Positions 3,870 through 42,642 of a DNA stretch of 64,000 nucleotides are shown piece by piece. Source of the stretch: Gnetum montanum (Eukaryota > Plantae > Gnetophyta); the NCBI GenBank assembly GCA_015680685.1, contig MNCI01002485.1, positions 1,126,914 through 1,190,913 on the forward strand. The letters run 5' to 3'. The number at the start of each line of letters is the position of its first letter. Position 1 is the stretch's first letter. The notes beneath the pieces are model-generated. The model was not told the DNA's origin and did not search any database. It saw only the letters and a program-made list of their open reading frames with translations. The position numbers were made by a program, and so were the translations under genes.

Positions 3870-6800
3870 CATCGACTTACTTAGGCTTTTGGAAAGGCTT
3901 GACTTGTATGTTGACCAACTACTTTTTGTTTGGGCTTTTAGGTTTGTAGATAAACATGGCACTAGAAGAAAAAGTTTTGTAAATGATATAAGGTCCTTCC
4001 CACAATGTTTGGAACTTAGTTTGTTGAAGTACATATGTGGGGTTCCAATAGAGAACCTTATCTCATGGTTGAAATTTGACTTTCCTAATTCTAAGGTCAT
4101 GGAGTTTTTTGTTGAATGCCTTATGGAACTCATTAGATGATAGGTCCATCAATTGATTTTCATCTAGCAAGTTGAGATTCATTAATCATTCTATTTGTAC
4201 TAGACTTAAGTTAAGGTTAAGGTCAAAGGTTGTTGAAAGTGTATGAAGATGAGATTGAATAGGAAATATGGATAATCTTTTATACACTAGTTGATAGGAG
4301 AATATCCTATAGGGACTTTCCATGTTGAGAGGTAGGCCAAAAGGGCATCATTGAGTTTTGTGCTCTAGTCTCACCTATATTTGCTAATAGTTCTCATTAG
4401 GATCTTTGTGATTTCCCTATTTCTAACACTAGCTTGATCATTAACTTGGGGGTAATAGCATGTTATTAGTTTATGTTCAACCCTCAAGTGTTGCATAAGT
4501 TTTTGAAAGGTAGTGCTTATAAAGTGGATTCCATTGTTAAAAATTAATGCAAATGGCACACCAAACCTATTACAACATTTTTTTGTACAAACTGAGTAGC
4601 AATAGAAGATGTACATTTGGTGACAACTATTGTTTCTACCCATTTTGTACAATAGTTAACAATGACTATGCTGTACACCTTTTCATTTGACATAGGTGTG
4701 ATGAGACCCATAAAATCAATGCCCTAGATGTTAAAGGATTTTGGTGGTTGGATTCATTTTTGAGGTTCCTCCATTTGAATAGTCATTCCATTATCTTATT
4801 GGTAGCATTCACAAGAGTAGACATATTGGTGAGCATCCCTAAAGATTATTGGCAAGTAGTACCCTACCATCAAGATATTAATGGCTATGCATCTTCCAAC
4901 ATAGTGCTCCTCATAAGGACCCTCATGAGCATCCTAGACATACCAATAAACCAAGCCATTGATGCACACCTTGTTGAGATGTCCGTTGATCTCCATGAAG
5001 TGTTTTACCTAGTGAAGAAAATATTACGTCTTTTAATGGTCCAATCCCTGTGGCATCTCTTGAGTGAGAAGATAGGTAAAAATGCCAACATACCATTTAG
5101 GCTCAGAGGAAAATTATTTAATTATTTCCCTAGAAAAGAGGAGTTCATTAGGAAATCAATTATATAGTGGATATTCATCCTCTTTGTTCTCCCATTGCAA
5201 TCCAGACAAGTGATCAAAGATCACATTCTCAGTTTCCTTTCAATCTACCATCATAAGATTGAATTCCTATAAGATCGTCAGTCATCATATGACATGAAGG
5301 CTCACCATTGTCTTGTTCATTAGGAAGTGAATTGCACTATGGTCCATGTGTACAAGCACCTTTTATCCAAGCACATAATGCCTAAAATTCTCTTGAGAAA
5401 ACACCACTATCATCAATTCTTTTTCTCTAATGGTGTAGTTCAGTTGTGCACCCATAATGCTTTAGCTTATGTAGTGGATATAGTATGGACATTTCTTATT
5501 ATCCAATTACATAAGTACAACTCCCAAGGCATAGTGTGAAGAATTTTTCATGACATAAAATGGTTTAGATAAGTTAGGTGCTTGTAGAATTGGAGTTTCT
5601 ACAAGTTTCTCCTTTCATTGTTGAAATGATTTTTCAAATTCCTTGGTCCAAACAAATAGAGCATCTTTCTTTGTTAGCTCAACCAATGGTTTTGTGATCT
5701 TAGAGAAATTATCTATGAATCATTGATGTAGCCAGTGTGTCCAAGGAATGATTGAACATATTTGATGGTTTCTCATTGGTGGGTAATTCTTTAGATGACC
5801 ATTATCTTTTTAGGGTCAACCTCAATTCTTGCTTGTGATATTCTATTTTCCAATATAATGCCTTCCTAGACCATCAGGTGACTCTTTTAGAAATTGAGTT
5901 ACAATTTAGTTTCAACACATCATTTTAGTACTTGCTCAAGGTGGTTTAGGGCCTACTCAAATGTAGCTCCATAGGTGGAGAATTCATCCATGAAGAAATC
6001 CATACCACTACCATTTTGCTGCTAAAAAATGCTTAAGACCAGGTGTTGGAAGGTGGTAGGAGCATTGCATAGACCAAAAGGCATCTTGCAATATACAAAG
6101 GTCCCCTAGGGACTTATGAATGTTGTTTTGGCCTAGTCCTCTAGCACAATCTAGATTTAGTTATAGTCATTATAACTATCCATAAAATTGCAAAAGCAAT
6201 ACCCATATATTATGTCTAACACCTAATAACCAAATGACAATGGAAAATGATCCTTAAATATTGTCAAATTCAGCAACCAAAAATTGATATAGACCTACCA
6301 CTTGCTAACTTTATTTGGCATAATCACAAGTGAACTAACATACTTACTATTCACAATGAGATAGATGAACCCTACCTTAAGGAGTTGTTCAGTTTCCTCC
6401 TTGATGATGTGCTTTAGTTTGGAATTCAATCATCTCTGGGGCTATCTCTTTGGCTTCATGGCTAGATCGATGTAGATATGATGCTGCCATATCCTATGAT
6501 CAATCCCTCTGAGTTCAAGATATGACCAAGAAAAGGCTATTGACCATTTTTTAACCACTTTTAATAGCATCTTTTTCTATTCTTGAGCAAGATTTGCATT
6601 GATTATTATCATATATCCATTTTTTAAGAATACATATTCCATGCCGATAGGTAGAGTTTTTAATTCAAAAGGCTCTTGCTTAAAATTTTAGAAATTTCCA
6701 ACCCTCGCCAATAGGTTTCATCATTTTCATTATTAAAGAGTTGGTGATGAACTTGCTCTAGTTCATCCATGTTTGTGACATACGTGCATGTTAGGCTTTT

Positions 6801-10959: not shown

Positions 10960-11087
10960 GATACTTGAAAAGAAGGACCTCATTTACAAGCTCCTTAAAC
11001 ATCTTCATTTTTGTTAGCAAGTAATTTTAGTAGAGGTAAGTCTTCATCTCATTCAAACTTTCTTTTAAGATTATAATCCATTGTAGT

Positions 11088-11592
11088 TGTAATGTCCCAA
11101 CCCTTGTTAAGGTTGAAAGCAATTGTAAATAATGTAATTAACCTTCTAATGAAGGGACACCTCATTATGAGGAGTTATGATTATTCATGTATCCTTTGGG
11201 AAAGGATTTGACCTATGCCATTTAAGGTTGGGGTTAGAAGTTGTGTTGAGCATAAAGTTGTGAAGCCTAAAGAGGTAAGTAATGGGGGCGAAGTGGGACA
11301 AAAAGGGATTGATCATCCCTTTGGCAGGATAGCCTAACTGTGGTGGTAGTGCTAGATTGCCTCTAAGGCTTAAGTGGCATAGGAAGACAACCCAAAAGGG
11401 CATTACAATGCTCTCTTCCATTAATATAATTTTTTCATTTTCTTTGCTTAATTTTATAGTACCAATTATTTATTTACAAATTAATCCATTATTTAAGTAT
11501 TTATAATATTTTCAATATTATATCCACTAAAATGGTGAATGTAATAAATTAAGCGTTCATATTTTTATGACATCTGAGAATGGGATGTCACA
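11088..11592 (+). repeat. 5' LTR of the chromovirus
   Basis: TGTAATGTCCC...GGGATGTCACA; direct repeat of 19978-20487. Confidence 0.95.
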
Positions 11593-11594
11593 TT

Positions 11595-11606
11595 TGGTAT
11601 CAAAGC
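11595..11606 (+). promoter_or_regulatory. Primer-binding site, initiator tRNA-Met type
   Basis: TGGTATCAAAGC 2 bp after the LTR (canonical TGGTATCAGAGC). Confidence 0.9.
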
Positions 11607-11823
11607 AAAACATGATTCAAGAACCAAAGTGGAAGAAAAACCTTATTTTATTATTATTTTTATCATAAAAAATAAGTACATTTAAGAAAAATAACAATAT
11701 GGAGGAAAATATTATTTTATTTTATTATCAAGAGGAGTGAGAAGAAGTACATCTAAGTAAGATATAGAAAAGGAAGAATAAGGGAAAGAAGTAGAATGGG
11801 AAAATAAAGAAAAAAAACTATAA

Positions 11824-13727
11824 TTATTTGTTATAACTAAATGATTCAAGAATATCTATAATTATTTTTAATTGGTATTCTCTTTCTTTAATAGTAGCAT
11901 CTACTTTGCTAAGCACTGCTTTACATCCAGCTAGTCTATCACATAATTATTTGATATATTTGGTTGCACATCTTGCTGCAGTTGTTGATTCTTCTCTTTT
12001 TTTTTTAAGTTGAGTCTTCAACATATCCATCTATATTGATTGATCATCCATGTCCCTTTTCCATTCCTTCTCCTTTTTCTATAGAAACAAGATTTAAATT
12101 ATGAGTTATTAACATATCAACAAACAAAAAAGAGAGAAGAGAGAAAAGTGAAAAAATAATATAATAATAATAATAATAAAATATATTACCTAAAATTGAT
12201 CATTATTAATTTAAAGAAAGCATGCATGAGCATTCAGATGGTGAGCATAACATGTTGCACTTTCCAACTCTTCTAAGAGTTGCTCCAGAGTTTTTATAGT
12301 ATTTGGAGCATCCTCAGGAATTGGATGCCAAGATGATGGAAGTATAGCCTATACTAAATCATAATATGCTTTTAAATTGCATGACCAAAACTCCCATAGA
12401 TGATAGACATATGCATGACTAGAATAGGGTTTATTGTTAGAGATTTTTTCATTAATATACTGAAGAAGCACAAGTTCTTCTTCAGTAGCTACCATTATCC
12501 TTCCCATGGAATAAGATGAATCAGAGATAGAGAAAAAATAAATTACTATAATATATTTAGAAATTATTGTTGGTGCTACCTTTGAAAGGGAACCTCTTCT
12601 AGGTATTGGTGGAAAATAAGGTATAAGTGGTGAGCTAGGTGGTGGTGGAATAGGAGTCTGTGTAGAAGTAGCACCTACATCAACTCTATCCATTTCTCGA
12701 ATAAAGTACCATCGCTCCATAGACCTTTGCAACAAAAAAAATTTTAATTAACATTATACAAAGAAAAGAAAAAAGTATTCAAATTGTTAAATAATTAATG
12801 CCTACCTTTGGTTACTTTCCCTTATCACATCTTGAACTTTGTCGAGTTGGTTGGGATTGTTGTTGAGCCTATTGTCGGGTTGGTTGTCTTATAACTATTG
12901 GACCACTAGAATTTTTCCTAGTACATTACCTCTACAAAAGAAACTTATCAGAAAAATAAAAAAATAAAAAATATATATATAAAACATTAAAATTAGTAAA
13001 TTATATTTAAATATATGCCTTGGGAGTAGAAACTGTGACTTGTTCTTGTGATTGAACCATACCAAAGGTCAAAGTACCTTGAATTTCTTCANAAAATGTT
13101 TTTTGAGATGATCATAACTTAGGATCATACACATGATCAAAGGTATACAACATAGAGTATAGGATTTTAAAGAATGTTATTGGGCAATAGTCATTTCGGT
13201 CATAGTTGGATTGTTGTCTATACCATAGAACCTTGATACTAATGAATAGACATAATTCAAAGTAAGCATCATTAATGAAATGTTTACGAACAAATTGATT
13301 TTTTGTGAATGATGGAATTAGTAACATAATTGGATAATTATGTCTTATAAAAAGATTTAAATTATGGAGAATAAGTTGAAGGAATCAATGGATATTCTCC
13401 TTGCTTAAAGCCTAAGACTACTTTAATATCAAAAGGATTGATCGTTATCAATCCAAAACCTAATTAAAAAAAAGTACTTTTCTTATTATCATACTGCTCA
13501 AACCACTCTGAGAGAATACCCTTGCAATAGGAAAGTTTAGAAATTGGAAAAAATAGTAAATTAGCCAACCTAGAAGGGGTAAGGAACTAAAAATCATCCT
13601 TTACAAGCAAGCTACGAACTCAATCAAAAGCAGTAAGGACATTATTTTGGCATAAAAAAATATTATTAGGTAATAAAGAGCCACTACCTAAAGGGGCTTG
13701 AGGTGAATCTTAACATTTGGAAGCCAT
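11824..13727 (-). pseudogene. Antisense spliced accessory gene in the chromovirus leader: PMD-like N-terminus, low-complexity middle, coiled-coil C-terminus
   Basis: Hand-assembled exons 13727-13019, 12931-12806, 12724-12190 and 12078-11824. Introns are AT-rich, 81-111 nt, GC/GT...AG and all phase 0. Stops are mostly explainable as C>T changes of CAA/CAG/CGA; two 1-nt frameshifts are needed. Confidence 0.75.
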
Positions 13728-14419
13728 GAATTCTTTATAATAGAAAATCTTAAAGCTTCTTTGTTGACAATCTTATGTTGCTATTAAGTTATGATGAGTA
13801 AATCAACCTACTTCTTATATTTATAATATAATCATAAAAATCTTAGTAAAATCAAAGAGAAAATATAACTTAAGATAATAAAATATTTAATAAAAGGTAA
13901 CATATACCTTTTTTTTAAGAAAAAGAAAAAGCTAACGTTTACTTTTTGTTTTAAAAGTTAACATTTATGTTTTTGGATTTTATAATTTTTAGGTTTACTA
14001 AAGTGGAGTTATCACAAAGTACTCTCCGAGACAATTCCAATGGTATCAATTTCATCAAAATCTAACTTATGGTTTGGAAGATAAAGTCAATTTTGGTTTA
14101 CATGTAGTTTAAAAATTTAAAATTAAAAAATAATAATATAAAAATGATTTTTTTAAAAAAAATTTTAAAAATAAAATTTTAAATAAGGGATCTGAAGCTC
14201 AAACTTGAGCCCCAATTGCTAATTTAAAAATTATATATATATATAAATTTTTTTGGCCGACAGCTAGTTATAGCAAGGCCATGGCCAACTATAGTCAACT
14301 GTAGTAAGGGGGTGGCCAGCAGCTACAAAAGGGTTGTGACTATAAGTTTGGTTCCTAGGGCTAGCCCCAAACTGGGGCAAGTAAGAAAAACTAGCCCTGC
14401 CATCATAGCTATTTTTTTC

Positions 14420-14680
14420 CACCATTGATGTTTTCCATCATTGTCACTGCTATTCCATCATTGTCACTGCTATTTCCCCTGCTGTTGTCACTATTTCTTT
14501 TCCATTATCACTACACTACCTTCTCTTCATTGCCCATCACTACCTCTCACACAGTTCATCACTACCTCCCAAACCACCCATTACTGCCTCCTACACTATC
14601 CATCACTACCTCTTCTGCTATCCATCACTACCTCCTACACACCCATTATTACCTTCTTTGTTAGCCATCATCACCTTTTG
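14420..14680 (+). repeat. Degenerate CCATCACTAC/CATTGTCACTGC simple-repeat array
   Basis: Repeated CATCACTACC and CCATCATTGTCACTGCTATT units; this array explains ORFs 14425-14664 and 14441-14716. Confidence 0.75.
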
Positions 14681-15270: not shown

Positions 15271-18200
15271 ATGTCTAAAACATGAAGAACAAATTGGAGA
15301 GAAATGGAAGCCTGAGTCAATGATCGAATGAATACTCTTGAAGATCAAATTAATGAAATCAGGGATGTTCAAGAACTTCAACACTCAAACCAAATGTTTG
15401 GGATAGAGATGCAAAACATGTCTAAAGAAATTAAGAAATTGTCCCAAAATTCATAGGAGAAATGGTCTAAAGTACAAGGAAGATGGATTCCTTTGTAGAC
15501 TCCATCAAGCAATGAATCGACCATCTTAGTCAACCTTCGAGTCCTACCCATGGTCTACCTAGTGATCAACATTAAGATCAACCTTCCACTAGGAATCCAC
15601 AATAAACACAACTTCCACTTGTTAATGGATAGGATACTAAAATCCACCTTGTAGACAATAGAATGAATATTGAGGGTGAAGGATATGGGAAGTGGCTTAA
15701 TCCATTTAGAGAATTATTGACATAAGTTCATGCTAAGAAAGTAAAGTTAGATCATTACGATGGAGCCCTTGGATCTAGCACTAAGGCAAAGGATTGACTT
15801 GATACAATGACAAGTTACTTTGATATGTTGAATTTATCAAGCTATAAACATCTAGAAGTTATCTCCTTGTATTTAAGAAGACTTGCAACAACATGGTGGA
15901 ATGGGCTAAGATCTCAAGGTTTGATTACACATTGTCTTAATTTTTTTCAAGATTTTGAATATAAATTTGTTCTCGATTTTTTTCTCAAAGAGTGTAAAAC
16001 AAGATTTGATTCCTTAAGGTTGGGAAAACAATTTGTAGATGATTACTACAAAGAATTTTGTGATCTTTCTCAGTATGTAGGTCACCAGGATGAGGGAGGA
16101 TTAACTTCAAAATTCATGGGAGGACTACATGCTCAATTACATCCCCAAACATGAGACCATAATCCATAAAATGTTGATGAAGCATATAGAATTACTAAGG
16201 ATTATGAGGAATTGAATCAGATATGAGTGATCCTTCAACAAGAAACTTTTCAAGAAACCACTTTTCCTCAAGTAATGGTAGAGGAGACACTAATAAAAGA
16301 AGCTCAACTAGGATCTAGATGTTTCTTTTGTGGTGAGGATCATTTCAAACTAGATTGCCCAAAATTTTGAGCAAAAATATAAAGGACCAACCATATTAGA
16401 AATTATAAATCAAACCCAAACATGAACAAAGGAAAAATTCCAGCCACTGTCACAGCTGTCAAGAAGATATCCGCATTAACTAAATCAAGTTTGTGAAAAA
16501 TTTTAGTTTGCTTTACTAATTTTTGAAGGTTCAATTGAAGGTAAAAAAATTAAATTTTTGATTGATAGTGGTGGTAGTCATAACTTTATTTATCCAAATT
16601 TAATTAATTTATTGAAATTAAATATACCTTCCTAGAAAATTATTAAGATAGAACGAGCAGATGGAACAACTATGAGCAAGCATATCAAGTATGGAGAAAT
16701 TAACTTTACTTTACAAAACATGCCTTTTGTTGATGATTTTTTTGAATTTGAACTAGGTGACATTAATGAAATTTTAGGAATGTCTTTCCTGAAAAAATTT
16801 GATGTTACTGCCCTCTTTGAAACTCATATTTTAAAAGTTCCAAAAACTCATGGAGTCAAGGTTCTAAAAGGGGTAGGAACAACAAAGAAAATTCATACAA
16901 TAACTATTAAGCAAGCTAAAAGATTTTTCAAAAATGGTGCTATAGTGTTGGTTGTTAAAGTAACCCAACCTCATAAATTTTTATGTGTTAAGATCCCAAA
17001 TGAACTTAAGGAATATAAAGATTCAGCATTTGGTGAAACTATAGAATTACCTCCAAAACAAATTGTTGAACATATCCTTGATATTTTTCCTAGTGCACAA
17101 CTTGTCTCAAAATCTCTTTAATGATTTTCTATGTTGAAATTAAGAGAATTAAAAGTATAATTAGACCAATTATTGGAAGAATGAAAAATTAGACCTAGCA
17201 TATCACCTTGGTGTGCACCAATTTTATTCGTTAAAAAGAAAGATAGTACACTAAGATTATGCATCAATTATAGAGCATTGAATAAAGTAACAATTAAAAA
17301 TACTTATCCATTTCCTAGAATTGATGATTTATTTTATCAACTTATGGGTGCATGTTATTTCTCAAACATTGATTTAAAATCAAATTATCACTAAATAAGG
17401 ATTAAGGAGAAAGATACTGAGAAAACTACTTTTAGAACCAGATATGGATTATATGAATTTGTTGTGATGTCGTTTGGATTAATTAATGCACCTGCAACAT
17501 TTATGACATTAATGAATAATATTTTTCATGAATATCTTGTTAAATTTGTTATAGTATTTATGGATGATATACTTGTTTATTCTAAATCAAGAGAAGTGCA
17601 TATCAAAAATTTGAAAACTAAAATGGAAATTCTGGAAGAACACCAAATAAAAGCTAAATTGAGTAAATGTGAACTCTTTAAGGAAGAATTTTTATACTTA
17701 GGACATATAGTTTTCAAGAAAATATTGCAAGTAGATACTGCAAAAATTAGTGTGATCCAAGATTGGCCTGAATTAAAAGATGTTATAGCAGTTCAAAGTT
17801 TCTTAGGGTTAGCTAATTTTTATTGATTTTTCATTAAATATTATTCTGCGTCGGTAGCCCCATTAACTAACCGTTTGTAGGAGAAATGTGAGTTCAAATT
17901 TGATAAAAAATGTAGGGAATCTTTTCTCAGATTAAAGATGGTACTTACAATAGCACCTATTTTGAGAATTCTGGATGAAGATATACTATTTGAAGTATCC
18001 ATGGATGCCTGTGGAATAGGAATTAGTGTAGTTCTTTCATAGGATGATAAAATGGTATGTTATGAATCTCGTAAATTACGAAAAGCTAAGGTAAATTACT
18101 TAACCCATGATTTAGAATTACTAATAATTATTCATGCTTTGAAAGTTTGCAGACATTATCTTTGTGGAAAGAAGTTTGTACTAAAAATAGATCATAAAAG

Positions 18201-19795
18201 TATAGAATATTTGCAAAGACAACCTATTTTAAATACTCCTCAAAGGTGATGGATAGAATTATTTGTAGAATATGATTTTGAAATCAAATATATAATTAGC
18301 AAAAAAAAAATGTGGTAGCTAATGCCCTTAGTTGAATGTCGAATTTAAAGATAGGTGTAGTAATGACCCCTATGGAAGAATAAATTAAAAAACAAATAAC
18401 AGAAGATCCTTTAAAAATATTTTAACCAATATTTCCTATGAGCCTCAATATCAACTTACTTCTAATGGTTTACTGATGAAAGGACAAAGAGTATGCATAC
18501 CAGAAGGAAATTGAAGACAAAGGTTGTTGTGTGAAGAACATGAAGTACCATACATAGGATACCTATGTTATATTAATACCTATATGATAATATGAAAATC
18601 TTATTTTTGGCTTGGAATGAAGAATGATGTGTCTGCATAAAGTAAAAATTGTTCAACATGTTAAAGAATAAAGGCTAAATAGAGGGAACCTAGTGGATTA
18701 TTGCAACCTTTGAAAGTTCCAACCTATAAATGGAAAGATATCACTATGGATTTCATTCTGGGATTGCTAGTAATTGAAAAAGGAAATGAATCTATTTTCA
18801 TAGTAGTTGATCATCTATCAAAGATGGTACATTTTATAGCTTTGAAATCTACAAATGTAGCAAAAGAAATAGCCTAAAAATTCGTATGAGAAATATTTCA
18901 ATTACATGGTTGTCCAAATACTATCACTCTAGAGAGAGATCCCAAGTTCATATTTGAATTCTAGAAAATTTTCTTCAGAGAGCTTGGAACCCAATTAAAA
19001 TTTAGCATAGCATATCACCCTAAGACTAATGGACAAGCTAAATTTGTGAGTAGAATATTAGAAGATATCCTACAAAGCTACATTGGGAGTAGACCAAAAA
19101 TGTGGGAGAATTATTTACATCTAACAGAATTTTCCTATAATAACAATTATTAAGGTTCCATACATCAAACACCATTTGAGGTACTATATGGACGTAGTTT
19201 TCATACACCATTAACTTGGGTAGATCCAACCTTAAGAGCAGAATGAAAGGAAGAAGAAATGAAAATAATGGAAAACATTGTCACAAGGGTTAAAAAAAAT
19301 TTGCAAGGTGCCCAAGATAAATATAAAGGATATGCAAATCAACATCAACTTAAAAAAGAATTCCAAGTAGGTGATCAAGTATTTTTGAGAGTAAAACTTA
19401 CTAGAAGTTCTCTTAAATTAGCAAAATATACTAAATTAGCACCTAGATTTTGTGGACCTTTTGAAATCTCTAAAAGAATTGGAAAAGTAGAATATTAATT
19501 GAATCTTCCAAAAACCTTAAAAATTCATCCATTTTTTCATGTGATTTTGCTAAAGAAATTTCATGAAAATAATATTCCATATGTATTGGATTGGAATAAT
19601 TTGCCATTCTGAGCCAACACTGGCTTTGAAGTAAAACCCATTGTTATTAAAGACCAATGAACCAAGAAATTATGAAATAAAAATATTAGTGAAGTACTTG
19701 TTCAATGGTCAAATTGTGATCAACAGACTTGGGAAAATAGGGAGTTTAGTTTAAATACTTACCTCCAACTTTTTGATCATCATGATATTGAATGA
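15271..19795 (+). pseudogene. Chromovirus gag-pol with C-terminal chromodomain
   Basis: Gag in ORF 15807-16154; zinc knuckle CFFCGEDHFKLDC at ~16320; PR LIDSGGSHNFI at ~16558; RT VFMDDILVYS; RH at ~17990-18330; INT ITMDFILGL at ~18740; LAPRFCGPF; chromodomain EVLVQWSNCDQQTWE at ~19690. Confidence 0.93.
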
Positions 19796-19977
19796 AAGGT
19801 TGAATTTATTATGGATGTAATAAATTATGTTTATAATTTTTGATATTTTATTTGTATATATGATAATGAGGAGAATAAGGGAACTGAAGTTGAGTAGCAT
19901 AATAATGAAGTAGTCGTTGAGTAGCTGGATATTGAGGAAGCACTTGAGGACAAGCTAGCTAGTTTAGGGGGGTATAT

Positions 19978-20487
19978 TGTAATGTCCCATCCCTTGTTAA
20001 GGTTGGAAACAATTGTAAACAATGTAATTAACCTTCTAATAAAAGGGAACCTTGTTATGAGAAGTTATGACTATTCATGTATCCCTTGGGAAAGGGTTTG
20101 ACCTATGCCATTTAAGGCTAGGGTTAGAGGTCATGCCGAGCATGAAGTTGTGGAGCTTGGAGAGGTAAGTAATAAAATCTAGGTGAAGCAAGAAAAAAAA
20201 GGACTAATCACCCCTTTGGTAGGATAGCCTAACTATGGTGGTAATGCTCGATTGCCTCTAAGGCTTTAGTGGCATAAAAAGATAGCCCAAAAGAGCATTA
20301 CAATACTATCTTCCATTAATATAGTTTTTTCATTTTCTTTGCTCAATTCTTTAGTACCAATTATTTATTTTCCAATTAATCCATTATTTAAATATTTATA
20401 ATATTTTTGATATATTTTCCACTAAAATGATGAATGTAATAACTTAACCATTCGTATTTTTACGACATCCGAGAATGGGATGTCATA
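19978..20487 (+). repeat. 3' LTR of the chromovirus
   Basis: Direct repeat of 11088-11592, preceded by the PPT and followed by the TSD. Confidence 0.95.
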
Positions 20488-20641
20488 GTAGTTATACCCT
20501 AAACCTTCCCTTGCTAAAATGTCTACCATTAGACATATATATTAAAAGATAGAAATATACTCATAGAAATCTACATCATAAGTTATATTTTTAACTGAGT
20601 TGTGTGTAGATGTGACATAGACATCTACTAGTGATGATAGG

Positions 20642-23373
20642 TGATGAGTAGTGAGGTACCCCTATGCTCAACTATACAAATACGAGTGTTTCACACATGA
20701 TTCGGATGAATTCCAAGGACTAAGTGCTTATGCACCNNNNNNNNNNNNNNNNNNNNNNNNNNNNNNNNNNNNNNNNNNNNNNNNNNNNNNNNNNNNNNNN
20801 NNNNNNNNNNNNNNNNNNNNNNNNNNNNNNNNNNNNNNNNNNNNNNNNNNNNNNNNNNNNNNNNNNNNNNNNNNNNNNNNNNNNNNNNNNNNNNNNNNNN
20901 NNNNNNNNNNNNNNNNNNNNNNNNNNNNNNNNNNNNNNNNNNNNNNNNNNNNNNNNNNNNNNNNNNNNNNNNNNNNNNNNNNNNNNNNNNNNNNNNNNNN
21001 NNNNNNNNNNNNNNNNNNNNNNNNNNNNNNNNNNNNNNNNNNNNNNNNNNNNNNNNNNNNNNNNNNNNNNNNNNNNNNNNNNNNNNNNNNNNNNNNNNNN
21101 NNNNNNNNNNNNNNNNNNNNNNNNNNNNNNNNNNNNNNNNNNCTAGAATAACCACTCTAATAATTAGAATAACTGCTACAGTAAACGATAGAGTAACCAC
21201 TCTAATAATTAGAGTAACTACTCTCATCATACCCCCATGACCGAATGAAAACTCATCCTTGAGTATAGAAGAAAAGAAACAAGTTCTTTACAAAATATTG
21301 GGATGGTATGGGATTATTGACTAACTAACAACTGATGGTGAAATGGGATGACAGACTCAATGTGCCTTATGAATGGATCAATAAGCATATTACAACATTA
21401 GTGTTCATGACCATTGTGGTGAACACTGGTACATAAATGACATCCAAGCCTTTATTTGGAAGCTTGTAGAGAAAGAGAGAGAAAGAAAATGGTGCATTTT
21501 GCCACCAATTCCGAGATTGTGCCTTTTGTTATTTATTCATAGCAATGCCACCAAACTTGCTCCTTTCATAACTGCTCTAGTTTTAGTCCATCCTAAGTGC
21601 TTCCTCCAAGCCTGGTCCATTTTTTGTATGATCACCATCTACACACACAACACAATCACAAATGAGCAAGGATAGATAAACCACAATGCAGTTGATACCT
21701 TGCCTCAATATGAAGTGCATTGGTTGAGTTGTTGTTATAGTAGAAATTGGTTTAGAGATTTATCACAGGTGACTACCCAAGGTGTAGGGGTTAGGAAAAT
21801 ACTCATTTTCGCTTAAGACATGTGGGGCATCCTAGGACCACTTACCCTTCAAGGACTTATGATGTCTCTCCTATTGCAAGTACCTATGACATTGTGCCTT
21901 TGTGGGATGGTATTCTCTTGAGTCATGATCTTTCACAATGTATTCTACATGTAAGTGCAGCATGCCAATTCATGTGAGAGCATGAAGGAGTATGCTCAGG
22001 ACTTAATGATTAGGAGATAACACTATGTTACTTTCTAAGTCTCGCCAATGCAGTTTTTCCTCTTGATGGAGATAAAGGTAAAGTTTGGTATATACTCATC
22101 AAGATGAATATATACCACTCAAAATTCTTGAGGGACTAGTGGATCAATGTCATGTGTATTACATCGTTGACTATTTCCTATTTTAGACCTAGGCAATGAA
22201 ATGCTTTCATATGAAGAAGCATACATACTTGTCTACTTAGTGTGAAATGTATTCTTGCTTATTATTTTCTCAATCAACCCTAATGGTTCCTTCCAATGAT
22301 GTGAATGAATTCCTATGTTCTAATTAGTGCACAAATAACTAAGTCATCAGCAACGGTGCCAATGATGAGCAGCGAGGTACCCCTACGCTCAACCATATGA
22401 ATACGAGTGTTTCACACACGATCTGATCGAATTCCAAGGACTAAGTGCTTATGTGACCTTGTGGAACAAGGATAGGTCGGGTGATCATTGTCTTCTCAAA
22501 CTTACCTATATGGCATGATTGTATAATTAAGTAAGCTTGAGGCATATGATTTTTGTAGCTTTTATGTTTTTATGTCCTACGCTAGTAGGGAAGGAGAGAG
22601 GTAACTAAGTGAATAATTTAACCTAACTAATCATTAACTAAGTTCTAACTAATCTTAACACTAGCATCCATTCCCACTTTACATACATATCTTGAACTAG
22701 TGCAACACTGCTAGGATTACCAAATGCTAATCGTTAGTGGGTTACCAAGCGTTACACACATGCTTGAAATGGTCATGCTTCTGTAATTTAACAATTTTCT
22801 TAATTGATCAAAATGAATTTTTGTGCTAATAATAAAAATGTAAAGTGCATAAAATAAAATAAAATAAAATAAAATAAATGAATAAGAAATTGAAATAAAA
22901 GAAATGCATAAGAAAAAAAATCTCAAGTACTACAAGGATGAATCAAAGAGCTTGTCATTATTGCCATACACAAGGTGTGCTTAGGTACACAATGCTCGAA
23001 TAAAGATCCATCCAAACTTAGAACTCCTACTGTAGGCACTTGGAAAATAATCTAACTTTCAAATAGACTACAAGAGTTTTGCTACTTGACTACTAAAATA
23101 CTTTCTTCCCAATTGTGTGTTTGGGCACTATGTTTATAGGCTTGGGAGCAACTACTCTAATAATTAGATTAACCACTCTAATAATTAGAATAACTTCTAA
23201 AGTAACCGCTAGAGTAATCACTCTAATAATTAGAATAACTAGTAGAGTAACTACTAGAGTAACCACTCTAATAATTAGAGTAACTACTAAAGTAACTGCT
23301 AGAGTAATCACTCTAATAATTAGAATAACTGCTAGAGTAACCACTCTAATAATTAGAGTAACTTCTTTCATCA
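20642..23373 (-). mobile_element. Non-autonomous, non-coding Athila-family element B (LARD/TRIM-like)
   Basis: LTRs 20642-21229 (gapped) and 22363-23373; minus-strand PBS TGGCACCGTTGC at ~22350-22361; PPT TGGGGGTA at 21230-21237; TSD ATAGG/ATAGT; 1133-bp internal region without recognisable domains. Confidence 0.88.
23150..23361. repeat. Palindromic tandem array in the LTR U3: 21-bp unit with core ACTCTAATAATTAGAGT interleaved with 12-bp CTACTAGAGTAA
   Basis: Six CTCTAATAATTAGA cores; the same array occurs at 21143-21220 in the sister LTR. Confidence 0.9.
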
Positions 23374-23536
23374 ATAGTCATCTATCTTTTCATAAAAAGT
23401 CCCTTGATAGCTATAATTACATAAAGCTAATCCTTCATTTTTCCCTTATTCTTCCACATGCAAGTGTAGATGACTGAGGGTAGATGACCACGACTTCTTC
23501 AACAATAGTGGTTTATGGATTTCTCTTCCAAATTGA

Positions 23537-26533: not shown

Positions 26534-28056
26534 GATTCACTTTTTCCTCTTCCTCATGTGAGAAGGATAATTCTTCTAGTAGAATAGGAGTCTAAATTTA
26601 AGAGGTCCCTATACCATTTCCTAAGCATTGTCAAAGCTATGGATCCACCTCAATGAAGGTTGTTCAATTGTGTCTTGCTATTTGAATGTGATGGCACCCA
26701 ATGGTAGTGACATTACAACAATTACAATGTCTAATATAGTCACATGAGTAGTAAAAGAAGGGCATCTTCCTAAAAGAAAACTGATCCTAGTAGTTCCATG
26801 ATGGAGATTCAAATTGATGAGAAAGCTCATTATCTAGATTTATGTAATTCTAGTTTAGAAGTTAATATTATTTCATTGCAATAGTACCTTAATTAGGGGC
26901 TTCCCTATCCAAATATTACTAACATTAGATTGAAGCTTATAGACCTATTGTATACATACCCCATGGAAGAGGTCAATGACATTATGACCACTTCAATGGA
27001 ATGATCATATCTTAATAATTTCTTAGTAATTAAACTATAAAATAATATGGAAGATAGGTTTCCTATAATCATGAAAGAAGGCTGGATGAGCACCATTGAT
27101 GCCAAGATAATTTTCCAAGATGTTCATGTTGATATTGGTAGGAAACAGTAGCTAGAAAGACATAGTATAAGTAGATCTTATATGATTCTTTCCAATCTTA
27201 TGACAAGCATGGTTGTAATTTCTATGTCACTAGGCATTTCTATGTCATTAGATATGTGAATTACCTTGAAGAATTTCTAGTCCATGAAGCCAAACATCAA
27301 TTCTTTGAAAGATCATTCCATATTTTTCCTTATCGAATGTCAAATCATTTGATTAAAAAGTTGAGAATATAATGAATGTAGCTACAATGGTGTAATATGA
27401 TCTTGAATTCTAGGGCATCCTTAATTTGTTCCAAGATATTTCTACATCACCACTCAAAATCAAGACACTTTAAGAAATCTTGGAGTACTTATTCATTATA
27501 GATGATTTCTTTATCATTATTAATTTCTTTTTAATGATCTCCCAAAATTTTGAATTGAAAAGGTAATTGCAAAGTGGAATAAATCATTTACCTAATCCCA
27601 TAATGAACTCATGGAAATTGATACTTTGATATATCAATACAACATATACATAGACTAAAGTGTAAAACCTTGGTAAATACTATAGTGTTGATTCAATCCA
27701 AATATGTAGGTATGGTAAAAAGTGAAATTGTCCATATCCTATGGATTGGTTTCATTTTTACTATCTTTGACAATGAGTGGGTTAGTTTGAGTATAGTTGT
27801 ACCAAAGAAGGGAAATGAAAGAAGAGTCTATATCAACTATAGATTGCTAAATGTTGATGCCTTTAAGGACCATTTCTCACTTACCTTTGTAGACTAGTTA
27901 TTGGATAATATCCTTGGTTAGGACAATTAAAAATTTCTTAATGGGTACTTTAGTAACAATCGAATTAACATTACATTAGAGAATTAAGCAAAAAATACCC
28001 TCATTTATCCATGAGGGATCCTTGTCTTCAAGAGCATGCCCTTTGGGTTATGTAAT

Positions 28057-30958
28057 TGTTGGCACATTTTGGCCATATTATGGAGTAGAAATATAAAAAG
28101 TATGATAAGTTTTTTTTTAAAGAAAGGGGATGTGAAGATATACACTTGAAGACTATTATTAATCATACCTATTTCAACATTAGATAACTATTCTATTTAG
28201 TAATGCTATTAATTCATATTCTCCTTGCCTAAGGTTTAATTCACTATCCAAGATAAACCCATTACAAAACCATTATATTTGGGTGGACACATTTAATTCA
28301 AAAATATATATTTCAGTTGAGGATGGATAGTTTGAATATTAGAAATTTTATAATTCCAAGTCCAACTAAAGAAAAAACATCAGAGTAGTACAACAAGAAT
28401 ACCATTATAGTTCCAATTTTTTTTAAAAAAATATAATTATATCAAGCAAAGGTTCACTCATTATCATTAATACTCACGAAATCACCAATACCATGTTTAG
28501 TGTGGCCTTCATGACATTGATGGGTTGAATCATTGTGGAGACATGACAAGAATAAGCATTAAATCCCTCACAACCCTATTCCTTGGTTCTCAATTATTTG
28601 TTTTACAATGATTTCCTCATTTGTTGCAAGTGTACCTCTAGTGCTTAAAAACATTTCCTACCAAGAAAGAAATATAAATACAGAAATGAAAGTGAATGCA
28701 ACCTTTGCATTTTGTTTAAGGTTTGACAATGCTAGGGAATTATTTTTTGAGCATTTCTCAAGACTCTATAGTTGCTCTATTTCAGTTTTATTTCTCAAAG
28801 ATAAAATATGCAATAGTAGGGTTAACTTGGATGGACACAAGAGCTTTTGCCTATTGTACTATTTTAAAAAAAATAAATGAAACAAATATGAATAATGGAT
28901 ATCCCTGGAAGACTATCTAATGGACCTACAACTAAATAAGAAAGAACAAGAATCATTTCAAATGGTAATGTTGCCAATTGTCACTTCACCAAAAAGTAAA
29001 ATTACAAGAAGATATGGGAGCTCCATTGCCATATTAGCTATCGATTCTTATTCTTGTTTCATTACTATTATTATGTCCATCATTGTTCCTATAGAGGCCT
29101 TCACCGTCTCCATCTCAATGTAATCTGGTTTTGGAATGTCATTGGAAATGGGCTTTGATTATGATTGAATTGTAATGACATCAGCTATGGTAGTTTTAGG
29201 AAGAAAGGATGACATATGGCAAGAGGTATCAAACCTTACATGTGCCAGGGTTTTGATAACTTAATTCCATGTTGTTGCAAGGTAAATTTTTTGAAGCTGC
29301 CATTGGTGATTCTTGCATCATTTTTATTGATGTTTCTAGCAATGACCTTGATAAAGCTTATCAACAAGACATCGAAATTATGAGTTGTTGTAAACTATGA
29401 GTTCATTGCCTAAACTAATGATGGTTATTGTAATAGAATACACACATACCTAAACACTTGGTCTAAGCATATGCTATCTCCTTTAATTAGCCAATCATAT
29501 GTTTACTTGGTTCCACTTAAATAAAAACTCAATTTAAATGGAGAAGAAGAATTTACATGATATTTGTACAACTTGCTATATAAAGAAGATATTTGGCTAT
29601 GACTCCTTTTATTTTTATGGAATTTGTAACTTCCTATGATGATATTTGTTACCAAGGAAGAACTTGGAAACTATATCTTAAATTTTTCATAATTCCCATG
29701 GAAGTTATAACTTCTACAATGGTTATAAATTTATATGCCTAAGATATTTGTAAGATCCATAACTTCACATGATTATTGTAACTACCTTAAGGTCGCTACA
29801 AAAGAACCTTCAAAGGTAGACTAAAAGGGGGAGGAAGATTGGAAAAAAACATTTAAATAATTCTTGTAAGATGGCTTATTGAAGACATCAATTCGGCTAC
29901 TTTGTTTTAATCTTGTGAGTTCATTTCTTTCCATTTTGTTTCAGTTTCTTAGCTAATGGTTTAGATAGTATCATTCTTTGCATTTAATTTTGGAATTTAT
30001 TCTAGGTTGCTTTTATAGCTCTATTTTTGTGCAATATTAGACTTCTATTAAGATTTTCCATAGAAGAGCTCATGTTTTTGGAAGCCTCAAGAGCAATTTA
30101 ATAGTAGTGCCTTAATGAAATTGCCTATTTTGACCATAGAGGATCTAGGAAAGGCTTTGGTATTTTGATGAGACTAAAATAGGTTCTTTATTTTTAAAGT
30201 TTATTACCTTGGTATTCAACCAAAAAAATTATCAATTTTTTTAAAAGCTCTATGGAATGTAATATTTAACATCTATCAACTAGCCAAAATAGAGACTTGC
30301 ACTTTGTGATTTATGGAGAAATATATGGTATTATAATAAGATTGTTTTTATGAAATTGATTATTAAGCTCTAAAAGTTTGGACAATTTGTAGTTATTGAA
30401 TTGGAAATAGCTTTATTGCAAAGTGTTTTCTCATGTCAATTTATCTTACTTAATATTTGAGATTTCACACAAATCTACTTCTTTTCTTTCTCTTTCTATG
30501 TCCATTGAATCTTGCTTTATTTATAGTTTTCATGTGGAACTTTTTCTCTAGGGGAAATTTGGAGTAGATTGAAAGAATTATGCTTAAATGTTTTTGTAAT
30601 ATTTTATTTTTTACAAGTAGGTATTATAAGGATCATATAGACTATGTGATTAAACAAAATTGAAATCTCCAACAACTCATAGTGTTTGACAAAGTTGGTC
30701 AAATCTCCTTTATGATAGTTGATTACAATTTTATACATATCCCAACCATTTCAACATTTTCAATAGTAGAAATATATTCATGTCTAGTACATTTTATAAC
30801 TATTGAGTTTATTTGGAGGTATTTAGGCTTTGGTGCTGCTAGAGACTAGCAAACATCTAAACCCTATTTGAAGAACACTTTCAATCCTATGACTTCCCCA
30901 GGTCGCAAGACTGTGGAGACCACCATGTTGACATTTGCATCCCAAGTGGTCACCAATA
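28057..30958 (+). repeat. 5' LTR of D
   Basis: TGTTGGCACATTTTGGCC...CACCAATA, colinear with 39063-42642. Confidence 0.9.
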
Positions 30959-34300: not shown

Positions 34301-37300
34301 TGGTTGAAAATACTACTTCAAATGGAAAAAACAATGCTATTGAAACAAGAGCTTTCAAAACCAAAATTTGCACACTTTAAGAAATTTATAATTTGGAAAA
34401 TGAAGAATCTTAAAATGAGAGCAAATGAAAAGTATAGTTTGATGGTTCTTGTAACTTGAAAGGTGCAAGAGCCAGAGTCATTCTAGTAAAAGATGATTTT
34501 TGAAAAATATTCAAGGAAATTCATCTATCTTTCCCTTGTACAAATAACAAGGTTGAATATGAAGCTCTAAGTATTGGAATTAAAAAAACATTGGAAAAAG
34601 GAATCAAGGTAATCATCATAAAAGGAGACTCAAGATTGGTATGTGAATAGGTCAATGGTAATAGTGTAGTAAAGAGTTCATTTTTGTGATCTCATAAAAA
34701 TTTTATCTATAAAATGCTAAATCAATTTCATCATTACCAAATAAAACATATACGTAGAGAAGATAATTATATAGTAGATGACTTAGCAAAAGTAGCTTCA
34801 TCATTAGATGTGAAAAGGATAGAAAGTTATGAAGATGTAATGATCAAGAATAAACATCAGCCATTAGCACCAGATAACATAAAACATTTACAAATATTTG
34901 AAGATGATGATCAATTTCTTATATTGTTGAGAAATAAGAACGAATTTGAAGGTCAAATCATAGCTAAAATAGCATTAGGGTTTAGGACAAATTCCATTCC
35001 CAAAAAAGTGATTGATTATGGACATGAGTTTAAAAAACGTTTGCTTACTAGAAAGGATGTACAAAATCTAGATGATCAAGTTTATGAAGTAGTGATTTTT
35101 AGATTTACTGAGTTGCCAAAGATGTTAAATGTCACAAAGGAAAAGGATTCTATTTTTAAGGAAAATTTATTATTACTCCTACAAAATAATTTGAAAACTT
35201 TTACTTGGTATTATGATGATCTTAAATCTTTTAGATTAGATGTGATGACACATATGAGTCCTTTGATAGATGATTGTAAGATAATTAAAAAAAATTTAAT
35301 TCATCATTTAAGATAGCTATGGAAGCTACGATCAAGAAGTTATTACAAGCCCAAATCATATATTTGGTTTGATATTTGACATGGCTTGTTAACCTTATAC
35401 CAATAAGAAAGAAGAATGATGATATTAGAATTTGTGTAGATTTCAAAAATTCGAATGAAGCCTTAGAAAAATAATAAATGCCCACTTCCTAGAATTGATA
35501 AAATGTTAATAAAAGTATCAGGTTATTAGGTATATTTTCATAGATAGTTTTTTAGGCTATAATCAGATCATGGTAGATGAGGGAAATAGATATAGAACAA
35601 CATTTATCACCGATTGAAGAACTTTTACTTACCAAATAATGCCATTTGGATTATCAAACATTGGAGCTACTTTTCAAAGAGTAATGAATTTGGCCTTTAA
35701 AGGATTCATAGGTGAATTCATTGTGGTTTATTTGGAAGATATCACCATATTTTCAAAAAGGAAGGAGGATCATATTAGTCATATTCATTAAGTTTCTGAT
35801 AAATGTCATGAGTATGATAATTCATTAAATCACAAAGAAATGTATCTTTTAAATTAAATTTGGAAGTTTATTAGGTCATGTAATCTATCAAGAAGGAATT
35901 GATAGATAACTCCTGAATCCAAGTAGTACAAAATATCAAGAATCCTATAGGTAAAATGTCTCTTAGATCTTTCTTTAGAAAGATAAATTTGTTAAGAAAA
36001 TTGTCCCTGGATTCATTGAAATTACTAAACCTCTTATGCATATGCTAAAGAAAAATGTCCTAATAGAGAAGACACTAAACTCAAAGAAATATTTATTAGA
36101 AATTAAGAAATATATTCCAAAAGCTCCTTATCAAAACCAAAATTAAAAGAAGAATTTTGGTTATCTACTTTTGCTTCAAATGATTCAGTATCTACAGTTT
36201 TAGGTAAAACAAAAAAAGAGAAAACAAGAGAGAGTCAAGATCAACTAATCAGATATTTTGGATATTAGTTGAAAGGTTTAGAGCTAAATTATTCAAACTT
36301 AGATAAATAATTATTCATAGTTATTAAGGCACTTCTACATTTCAAATATTAATTGGAAAGCTCATTAGTTCATATTATCCTAATTGAGCTTGTAGTCAAA
36401 ACATTTTTAGCCCAAAATGAAATTGGGTTGAAAAGAGAAAAGTGGCTCATAAAGCTTTAAGGTTTTAGATTTTCATTAGAAATATGAAAAAAAATTAAAA
36501 GAATGAGATTAGCCAAGTTAATAGCTAGAATAGATGAAGTATGTATGCTTAAGACGCATGACAAAAATTGGTATGATGAAATTCTAGAATTCCTTAATAT
36601 AAGAAAGGTTTCAAAAACTTAACTGCAAGTCAAAAGAGAGATTTCTCTAAAAGGGTAAATAAATTTATCATTAAAATTGGATTTTTTATACAAATTATTT
36701 TAGAGGGTTTTTGTTGGAATGTATTCACAATATAAAATTGATCCTATTTTAGAACAATTTCATGATTATTCCAATTTGTTTTATGAATCTTCTAAGTCCA
36801 CTATGTAACATATACTTCGTTATGGTTTTTATTGAAATAATATGTATTAAGATATTAGTTTGAAAATTCAAAGATGTTACAAATGTCAAATTCATGGGAC
36901 AAAATTCAAAAATGCTAAAGCTCCTTTAAAACTAATAATAGCGAATAGACCATTTTAGCAATGGGGCTTAGATTGCATTGGTACAGTTACACATTTGAGA
37001 GCTAGACATAATTTTATTCTCATAGCTACTAATTATTTTACTAAAAGGTCTAAAGCAAAGGCTCTAAGAAACTGTTTAGCATCCAATGTGATTAAGTTCT
37101 TGGAAGATCAAATTTTAACTCATTTTGGTCTACTTGAAGTGTTGATATCTAATAATGCGCATGCTTTTCAATCTAAAGAATTTATAACATGGATGATGGA
37201 AAAATCCATATTTCTATTTTCTTCTTCAAATTATTATCCTCAAGGAAATGGCTTAGCTAAATCTATAAATAAAAAGCTTATTTCTTACATTATGAGATTG

Positions 37301-42000: not shown

Positions 42001-42642
42001 AATTTTTGGTAGTATAATAAGATTGTCTTTATGAAATTTCTTGTTGGGCTCTAAAAGTTTGGACAATTTATAGTTATTAAATTGGAAATAGCTTGATTAA
42101 AAAATGTTTTCTCATGATAATTTATCTTGCTTAAATATTTGAGATTTCACACAAATCTACTTTCTTTTCTTTCTCTTTCTATGTTTATTAAATCTTGCTC
42201 TATTTCTAGTTTTCTTGTGAAACTTTCCCTTTAGGGGAAATTAGAAGTACATTGGAAAACTTGTGCTCAAAATTTTTTGTAAAAATTTTATTTTTTGCAA
42301 GTAGGTGTTATAAGGACCATATATACTAAGTGATTAAACAAAATAGGAATCTCCAACAACTCAAAATGTTTGACAAAGTTGGCTGAATCTCCTTTATGAT
42401 AGCTGGTTATAGTTTTATACATAATCCAACCATTTCAACATTCATAATAGCAAAAACATACTCACATATAGTAAATTTTATAACTATTAAGTTTATTTGC
42501 AGGTATATGGACCTTGCTGTTGCTAGAAACTAGTAAGCACCTAAACCCTATTTGTAGAACACCTTCAATATTGTGACTTCCCAAGGTCATGACATCATGA
42601 GGTCCACCATGTTGTTGATTATGTTCCATATAGTCACTAATA
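39063..42642 (+). repeat. 3' LTR of D, interrupted by solo LTR E2
   Basis: Colinear with 28057-30958; purine-rich tract AAAAATGGGAAATGAAA immediately upstream. Confidence 0.9.
40476..41112 (+). mobile_element. Solo LTR E2
   Basis: TGTTACA...TGTCACA; TSD CATAG/TATAG; the empty site is visible in the 5' LTR of D at ~29432. Confidence 0.92.

What the first reader, a model, noticed from the sequence alone, without database searches (positions are those of the whole stretch)
11824..13907. Spliced antisense accessory gene (~540 codons, PMD-like plus coiled coil) in the leader of a chromovirus
SEEN: between PBS and gag, the minus strand assembles into four coding exons. Exon 1 (ATG 13727-13019) includes ILSEWFEQYDNKKSTFF*LGFGLITINPFDIKVVLGF and DAYFELCLFISIKVLW...HVYD. 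Intron GC..TTTTGTAG (13018-12932). Exon 2 (12931-12806) is exactly 42 codons and ends SSRCDKGK*PK. Intron GTAGGC..AAG (12805-12725). Exon 3 (12724-12190) is Pro-rich, then TLEQLLEELES. Intron GTAATA..CTATAG (12189-12079). Exon 4 (12078-11824) reads KKEKEWKRDMDDQ...LKTQLKKKREE. A candidate 5'-UTR intron GTATAT..TAG lies at 13907-13808. All coding junctions are phase 0; one frameshift each is needed in exons 1 and 3. KNOWN: the W..Y....TF.L..G.ITI...DI..VLG pattern resembles the plant mobile domain (PMD) found in MAIN/MAIL1 and in TE extra ORFs; introns antisense to the genomic RNA survive reverse transcription. INFERENCE: an element-encoded, divergently transcribed chromatin or anti-silencing factor, now decayed in this copy.
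Basis: partly seen in the sequence, partly recalled or inferred. Interest (0 to 1): 0.88.

Follow-up and report, generated by a model that had tools for sequence, protein, structure and literature searches.

The report
Backwards spliced gene in plant retrotransposon
A high-copy plant jumping-gene family carries, backwards and in front of its own core genes, an extra intron-containing gene, dead in this copy, whose protein likely acted in the nucleus to keep the family from being silenced.

Summary
The gene is real; its protein family is unproven. The stretch lies between PBS and gag of a complete, old Ty3/Gypsy element (LTRs 85.7% alike, TSD GTAGT). A rule-based scan recovers all four minus-strand intron donors, with none in 118 kb of other window sequence. 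The frames hold 15 stops in 540 codons (2.8%), like gag-pol (2.0-3.4%). Over 6,000 contigs in each of two species cover the whole stretch, so it is family-wide. Sisters differ from this copy at the exon-1 frameshift and at one stop, and the listed differences follow the proposed codon phase (8/18/4, p 0.006). Corrections: sisters show no exon-3 frameshift (more likely a decayed acceptor), and the N at 13092 hides missing sequence. Against: one listed difference makes a stop in most sisters, no spliced RNA read was seen, and Pfam, three homology searches, PDB and a low-confidence fold gave no PMD/DUF1985 match; that resemblance is by eye and recalled. Known: unspliced 5'-reverse ORFs in Tekay, PMD+coiled-coil ORFs in Tat/Ogre. 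This scan noted similar spliced antisense genes earlier in fungal and animal elements. Verdict: new variant of a known kind.

The parts
11083..11087 (.). Target site duplication GTAGT, left copy (right copy 20488-20492)
11088..11592 (+). 5' LTR (TG...CA), 505 bp
   Evidence: 85.7% identical to the 3' LTR; 56 transitions and 14 transversions in 505 sites, K2P 0.158
11593..11606 (+). Primer binding site, tRNA-Met type (type recalled)
11607..11823 (-). Likely 3' UTR of the antisense gene; U-rich, with AATAAA at 11726
   Evidence: function inferred
11824..12078 (-). Coding exon 4: 84 codons, 2 internal stops, K/E-rich with heptad-like Leu/Ile/Val spacing (predicted coiled coil)
   Evidence: only weak Pfam hits to MPS2 (E 0.044) and Med9 (E 0.11), below cut-off
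12079..12189 (-). Intron 3 (GT-AG, 111 nt, 83% AT)
12190..12726 (-). Coding exon 3 in one frame: 179 codons, 3 stops; Pro/Ser-rich, then a helical part. A further possible donor lies at 12579.
12727..12805 (-). Intron 2 (GT donor, about 80 nt, 81% AT); acceptor probably decayed in this copy
   Evidence: the decay is inferred
12806..12931 (-). Coding exon 2: 42 codons, 3 stops, Q/R/S/P-rich low-complexity linker; its frame rests on junction phase (another frame has 2 stops)
12932..13018 (-). Intron 1 (GC donor in this copy, 87 nt, 89% AT)
13019..13727 (-). Coding exon 1: ATG at 13727, one frameshift near 13299, 7 stops, an assembly gap (N) at 13092. Holds the PMD/DUF1985-like pattern (by eye, recalled).
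   Evidence: family searches negative
13808..13907 (-). Candidate 5' UTR intron (GT-AG, 100 nt, 85% AT)
13908..14420 (-). Likely divergent promoter region: TATA-like words at 13984, 14237 and 14245; GC-rich patch 14240-14400
   Evidence: inferred, no start site mapped
14433..14670 (+). Tandem arrays in the leader (2.1 x 20 nt; 5.6 x 22 nt)
15600..19810 (+). gag-pol (gag, protease, RT, RNase H, integrase, SH3-like, chromodomain-like tail), with stops and frameshifts
19978..20487 (+). 3' LTR, preceded by a polypurine tract

Best explanation
This Ty3/Gypsy family carries a four-intron gene on the strand opposite gag-pol, between its PBS and gag, which is dead in this copy and likely encoded a nuclear PMD/DUF1985-like protein predicted to protect the family's copies from silencing. 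Shown: the element, the intron signatures, the stop-poor frames, family-wide presence in two species, and lesions in this copy that sisters do not share. Inferred: transcription away from gag from an internal promoter near 14.0-14.4 kb, with polyadenylation before the PBS. Inferred from how LTR elements replicate: the introns survive because the genomic RNA is the other strand and so is never spliced at these sites. Inferred: the protein is a globular N-terminal domain, a disordered Q/P/S linker, a helical part and a coiled coil that would dimerise. By analogy with VANC and MAIN it would bind the element's DNA and oppose host silencing in trans, which would let deletion derivatives lacking it persist. 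It was probably captured at the DNA level with its introns, from a host PMD gene or a Mutator-type accessory gene. My odds: real selected gene about 0.85; PMD/DUF1985-like about 0.5; anti-silencing specifically about 0.3.
For: Intron scan: donors of 4 of 4 introns recovered, 0 in 117.7 kb of background. Stop density 2.8% (15 of 540) against gag 3.0%, PR-RT-RH 2.0% and integrase 3.4%, so the gene decayed along with the core genes. 6,170 (X1, organism A) and 6,607 (X5, organism B) contigs were laid, covering 30 of 30 bins. Sisters differ from this copy at the exon-1 frameshift place and at the stop at 13466 (about 95% of depth). Of the 40 difference rows shown (of 595), 30 lie in exons. There most sister depth (usually over 90%) agrees against this copy, and codon positions 1/2/3 hold 8/18/4 (chi-square p 0.0055), the order expected if sisters vary at third positions. 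The frame that would make these third-position changes has 10-14% stops. PMD + coiled-coil extra ORFs exist in Tat elements (PMC4408406). PMD and the DUF1985 domain of the anti-silencing factor VANC are structurally alike (PMC13547354; bioRxiv 2024.09.27.615353).
Against: No Pfam family hit on exon 1 read through with X (0 families at E<=10). No homologue in two searches of 5.8 billion proteins (7 and 55 candidates, none scored). The only hit among 1.84 billion representatives is a tandem-repeat artefact. No PDB sequence match (best E 0.08). The single-sequence model has pLDDT 40.6 and no fold match. One of the 30 exon rows (12386) turns a sense codon into a stop in most sister contigs laid there, and the loose-end letters at 12236 also read with an in-frame stop (read by eye); heavy CHG deamination (CAG observed/expected 0.34-0.53) could explain this, but that is untested. 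No junction read among 152 (X10) and 7 (X13) RNA reads, most of which fit only in part. No short motif is over-represented in the element's non-coding DNA beyond the tandem arrays, unlike what a VANC-type target system would predict. The tool chose which 40 rows to show, so the codon test is not a dN/dS.
Confidence: 0.45

Rival explanations
1. A real, selected antisense accessory gene whose protein is not PMD-related and does something else, such as helping nuclear import, particle assembly or integration through its coiled coil, like the uncharacterised Tekay and Retand extra ORFs.
For: All the gene-level evidence above, together with uniformly negative family searches. In Neumann 2019, none of the listed CDD domain hits falls in a Tekay extra ORF.
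Against: The order of motifs in exon 1 (helices, W..YD, turn, G.ITI..D...VLG, then a later hydrophobic helix) fits the recalled PMD/DUF1985 N-terminus by eye. The domain-linker-coiled-coil layout matches Tat PMD-CC ORFs. The negative searches had little power.
Confidence: 0.35
2. A captured host or DNA-transposon gene fragment that was already dead and was amplified passively in the leader.
For: A stop shared by most sister contigs at one place. Contigs that skip the gene (11849 to 13923 in X1; 11727 to 13878 in X5). No transcript seen.
Against: Stop density equals that of gag-pol. The codon-position pattern among sisters. Lesions in this copy are not shared. No terminal inverted repeats or target duplication around the gene; only AT-rich chance matches. 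The skipping contigs have different breakpoints, one inside exon 4, so they look like deletions, not an empty site.
Confidence: 0.13
3. What matters is the spliced antisense RNA itself, which limits element activity by interference or small RNAs; the coding capacity is vestigial.
For: Antisense RNA control of retrotransposons is discussed in PMC7264820. The introns are the clearest signal here.
Against: The codon-level signals need protein-level selection.
Confidence: 0.05

Closest known systems
Tekay chromovirus eORF-5'R (Neumann et al. 2019, PMC6317226, Additional file 5: 12% of 782 Tekay elements)
   Same: Chromovirus with tRNA-Met PBS and 5-bp TSD; extra ORF upstream of gag in reverse orientation.
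   Different: That survey called only unspliced ORFs of 250 codons or more, and its domain table lists no Tekay hit. Here the gene has 4 introns and no open stretch of that size, so the method would miss it. Tekay membership here is inferred.
PMD and PMD-coiled-coil eORFs of Tat lineages III, IV, V / Ogre (Ustyantsev 2015, PMC4408406; PMD-A clade, Ikeda 2017, PMC5418596)
   Same: Extra gene in a plant Ty3/Gypsy element; proposed PMD + coiled-coil layout; antisense in lineages III and V.
   Different: Those are non-chromoviruses; their ORF is 3' antisense or 5' sense, no introns are described in the sections read, and they hit PF10536. Here: a chromodomain-type element, 5' antisense, spliced, with no Pfam hit.
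VANC anti-silencing proteins of VANDAL Mutator elements (DUF1985, structurally like MAIN's PMD; PMC13547354, bioRxiv 2024.09.27.615353)
   Same: TE-encoded accessory gene; globular domain plus coiled coil; the working model for function.
   Different: VANC sits in DNA transposons and binds motifs in non-coding TE DNA. No such motif enrichment was found here, and homology is not shown.
Antisense aORF-3R genes: Grande gene23, RIRE2, Retand TRP28, PvRetro13, fungal Boty brtn (PMC7264820, PMC11963269; brtn seen only as cited in PMC8365987 and PMC4227169)
   Same: Family-wide antisense accessory gene with its own promoter (shown for Grande); nuclear protein in Grande.
   Different: These lie between pol and the 3' LTR; this one lies between PBS and gag, and shows no TRP28 hit.

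Membership tests
Ty3/Gypsy LTR retrotransposon | LTRs, TSD, PBS, PPT; order gag-PR-RT-RH-IN | tested here: met
Chromovirus | Chromodomain at the integrase C-terminus | tested here: inconclusive
   PF00385 E 0.07, 13.5 bits, below the cut-off of 25.1, at the expected place after the SH3-like domain
Tekay clade | Groups with Tekay references in an RT/RH/INT tree | not testable with these tools
   No labelled references were held. The top RT-RH hit is 56% identical (range 49-58%), and named hits are angiosperm. 65 of 121 stored proteins (120 RT-RH hits plus P0002) carry a PWGAPVLFVK box, recalled as Tekay-type.
Tekay clade | tRNA-Met PBS and 5-bp TSD (shared with other clades) | tested here: met
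PMD (PF10536) / DUF1985 proteins | Profile match above the Pfam cut-off | tested here: not met
   0 families for P0001 and both halves of exon 1 at E<=10; the query is decayed and gapped
PMD (PF10536) / DUF1985 proteins | Structural match to the PMD/VANC fold | tested here: inconclusive
   Model pLDDT 40.6 from one sequence, first half of exon 1 only; no Foldseek hit at E<=0.001
VANC-type anti-silencing system | Short target motifs accumulated in the element's non-coding DNA | tested here: not met
   The top 6-, 7- and 8-mers do not exceed the null's 95th percentile; one old copy only
VANC-type anti-silencing system | Sequence-specific binding and loss of silencing marks | not testable with these tools
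   needs bench work
Family-wide antisense accessory ORF (aORF) | Present in most copies of the family | tested here: met
   Over 6,000 contigs per run across 30 of 30 bins in two species; some deletion forms. No single contig spans the stretch.
Family-wide antisense accessory ORF (aORF) | Conserved like the core genes (purifying selection) | tested here: inconclusive
   Indirect support from stop density and codon-position pattern; one contrary shared stop; no dN/dS
Family-wide antisense accessory ORF (aORF) | Antisense transcript from its own promoter | tested here: inconclusive
   No junction read in 2 RNA runs, read at about 2% and 26% of their size

The most novel reading that the evidence does not exclude
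A chromovirus family of a large, heavily methylated plant genome captured an intron-containing PMD/DUF1985 (VANC-like) gene, parked it backwards in its 5' leader where reverse transcription cannot strip the introns, and used it as its own anti-silencing factor while amplifying to very high copy number. This would be a third, independent recruitment of this fold by mobile elements (after Tat/Ogre and Mutator), invisible to ORF-based surveys.
Probability: 0.3. Interest if true: 0.75.

Novelty: new variant of a known kind. Interest (0 to 1): 0.52.

Why it matters
Surveys of extra genes in plant LTR elements call unspliced ORFs of 250 codons or more (PMC6317226), so spliced antisense genes like this one are missed, and a review asks explicitly for antisense and spliced transcripts to be sought (PMC7264820). 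A family-wide example in the 5' leader of a chromovirus shows that such genes occur in plants. If the domain is PMD/DUF1985, it bears on an open question stated in PMC5418596 (whether genic PMDs came from Gypsy elements or the reverse). It would also offer a candidate anti-silencing factor in a retrotransposon, a role so far shown for VANC of DNA transposons.

Tried and rejected
No genome is held for the window, so copies could not be collected. No second copy of the leader or of the exons in the window. Run search: no RNA holder listed. An exact LTR-end/PBS pattern found 0 matches in metagenome contigs. RT search of metagenome contigs gave 79 loci, none similar to any exon (best E 0.29). The viral-contig search was sent in the wrong frame and is void. 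P0002 (E 3e-27) was rejected: a 65-residue tandem repeat whose 17 weak stretches add up. Looking for a PMD seed for profile comparison: none in 7 antisense ORFs or in 107 of 228 non-pol ORFs. The genome search by family was not possible for these loci. The ESM Atlas gave no answer, so language-model similarity is untested. Single-sequence fold uninformative. Rejected: a one-off nested insertion; the exon-3 frameshift; the reading that the differences are third-position changes in a shifted frame (that frame is closed). Literature: eight answered full-text searches; in their listings and the passages read I saw no report of a spliced or PMD-bearing antisense gene upstream of gag in a plant chromovirus. 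Steinbauerova 2011 and Zhao 2011 were not read, and Neumann's Additional files 1 and 3 were too large to open; they may bear on novelty.

Full report
Setting. The finding lies inside one complete Ty3/Gypsy element on the plus strand: 5' LTR 11088-11592, 3' LTR 19978-20487, 85.7% identical, 56 transitions and 14 transversions in 505 sites (K2P 0.158), flanked by the duplication GTAGT, with a PBS directly after the 5' LTR and a purine tract before the 3' LTR. Pfam finds gag, protease, RT, RNase H, the integrase zinc finger and the Tf2-like SH3 domain, and a weak chromodomain at the end (E 0.07, below cut-off). The nearest RT-RNase H proteins are 49-58% identical (top hit 56%) and, where named, from flowering plants, so this family is not represented in the protein collection. 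CG and CAG are strongly depleted in the window (observed/expected 0.15 and 0.34), which I infer to mean a large, heavily methylated plant genome; the host was not identified. 'Tekay-like' rests on a recalled RT motif (65 of 121 stored proteins carry it), the Met-type PBS and the 5-bp TSD, not on a tree with references.

The observation. The four introns are 80-111 nt, 81-89% AT and 52-60% T on the minus strand; together they are 15% GC against 33% in the exons (p 5e-12). A rule-based scan (AG|GYA donor, 70-130 nt, AT >= 80%, T >= 50%, HAG end) returns donors at 13907, 13018, 12805, 12801 and 12189 on the minus strand, none on the plus strand, and none in 117.7 kb of the remaining window read on both strands. 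The excess persists at all 12 settings tried (weakest P 4e-4), though the settings were chosen after seeing the introns and nearby donors are not independent. Read piece by piece, the frames hold 15 stops in 540 codons, against null means of 27.3 (best of three frames per piece, P 0.0006) and 22.2 (best of six, P 0.019). This 2.8% matches gag (3.0%), PR-RT-RH (2.0%) and integrase (3.4%), so the gene decayed with the core genes and not long before them. Exon 2 alone is not discriminating: 3 stops in the chosen frame, 2 in another.

Sister copies. Four runs were laid on 11600-14100 at 80% likeness. DNA runs X1 (organism A) and X5 (organism B) gave 6,170 and 6,607 contigs covering 30 of 30 bins, so the segment is a standard part of a high-copy family in at least two species; no contig spans it whole. 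Sisters show an indel at the exon-1 frameshift place (16 and 15 contigs, plus loose ends at 13300) and differ from this copy at the stop at 13466 (about 95% of depth). Loose ends on both sides of the N at 13092 show that it is a gap hiding more sequence. The tool showed 40 of 595 difference rows; I dropped the 10 outside exons. The other 30, where most sister depth (usually over 90%) agrees against this copy, fall 8/18/4 on codon positions 1/2/3 (chi-square p 0.0055; third position 4 of 30, p 0.012). This is what selection on this frame predicts, since sisters should be least uniform at third positions. It is indirect, and the rows were chosen by the tool. Against: one of the 30 (12386) makes a stop in most sister contigs laid there, and loose-end letters at 12236 also read with an in-frame stop; repeated CHG deamination is a possible but untested explanation. 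Single contigs skip the gene with differing breakpoints (11849 to 13923; 11727 to 13878), and there is no terminal repeat around it, so these look like deletion forms. RNA runs X10 and X13 (about 2% and 26% read) gave 152 and 7 reads, nearly all partial, many ending in poly-A/T, and no junction; expression is not shown.

The protein. Exon 1 reads as a globular domain, exon 2 and the start of exon 3 as a Q/R/S/P-rich linker, the rest of exon 3 as helical, and exon 4 as a charged heptad-like helix (6 of 8 core places Leu/Ile/Val/Met in the best 28-residue window). The exon-1 pattern resembles the PMD/DUF1985 N-terminus as I recall it, but no call supports this. Pfam gave 0 families. Two searches of 5.8 billion proteins scored nothing. 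The one hit among 1.84 billion representatives, queried with the first 99 residues of the domain only, is a repeat artefact. PDB sequences gave best E 0.08. The single-sequence model has pLDDT 40.6 and no fold match. The ESM Atlas did not answer, and no PMD seed could be found for a pairwise test. With one decayed, gapped sequence and no relatives these are weak negatives, so I keep the PMD-like reading at about even odds and do not file the protein as a PMD member.

How it likely works. An internal promoter near 14.0-14.4 kb (TATA-like words and a GC-rich patch) would drive a transcript away from gag that ends in the U-rich stretch before the PBS. The genomic RNA is the other strand, so these introns are copied intact at every round of transposition. 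The same logic explains capture of an intron-containing gene in reverse orientation. The product would act in trans in the nucleus. By analogy with VANC, whose DUF1985 domain is structurally like the PMD of MAIN (PMC13547354 section 10; bioRxiv 2024.09.27.615353 passages), the likeliest single role is to oppose silencing of the family. A prediction of that model, short target motifs enriched in non-coding DNA, was not met in this copy. Rivals: a selected gene of another fold and role (0.35), a passively carried dead fragment (0.13), a regulatory antisense RNA (0.05).

What is known. Neumann 2019 (PMC6317226; passages, section 9, Additional files 4 and 5) lists 5'-reverse extra ORFs in 12% of Tekay elements, called as unspliced ORFs of at least 250 codons, and PMD hits only in Ogre. 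Ustyantsev 2015 (PMC4408406; passages and sections 6 and 11) describes PMD and PMD-coiled-coil ORFs in Tat lineages III-V. Ikeda 2017 (PMC5418596; passages) places Gypsy PMDs in clade A and leaves their ancestry open. Vicient and Casacuberta 2020 (PMC7264820; parts 1-2 of 3) and the Retand paper (PMC11963269; passages) cover 3' antisense ORFs. PMC9289625 (passages) finds PMD the commonest extra domain in plant Gypsy elements. brtn was seen only as cited. In eight answered searches I saw no spliced or PMD-bearing 5' antisense gene in a plant chromovirus; unread papers and files may hold one. Earlier notes of this scan describe spliced antisense genes in fungal and animal Gypsy elements (unchecked) and no look-alike of this stretch.

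Verdict. A real, family-wide, spliced antisense accessory gene in the 5' leader of a plant chromodomain-type Gypsy element, dead in this copy. Each ingredient has a precedent; the combination of position, introns and host lineage was not found in print. New variant of a known kind, interest 0.52; 0.75 if the PMD/VANC-like anti-silencing reading holds (probability about 0.3).

Noticed in passing
window 13092: The single N is an assembly gap; sister contigs continue with extra sequence on both sides, so a coding stretch or another intron may be missing.
   Followed up: partly
window 12579 (minus strand): A further donor-like site inside exon 3, followed by an AT-rich stretch, passes only the loosest scan setting; a possible fifth intron, though the frame stays open across it.
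   Followed up: partly
window 13019, 12806, 12726, 12078: Coding exons 1 and 2 both end in a Pro-Lys codon pair, and all three coding introns are phase 0 on the revised model; this may reflect a common origin of the junctions or just the exonic AG preference of donors.
   Followed up: no
window 14433-14670: Tandem arrays of 20 and 22 nt between the likely divergent promoter and gag.
   Followed up: partly
window 11727-13923: Single sister contigs skip almost the whole antisense gene with different breakpoints: deletion derivatives of the family.
   Followed up: no
window 61323-63751 (-), 5300-6348 (-), 35540-35785 (+): Other decayed RT/integrase remnants; long direct repeats at 28054-30885 / 39060-42569 and near 47694-56151 look like LTRs of further elements.
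   Followed up: no
whole window: CG observed/expected 0.15 and CAG/CTG 0.34: very strong CG and CHG deamination.
   Followed up: partly
window 21137-23382: A compound 12/21/33-nt tandem repeat next to an N gap.
   Followed up: no
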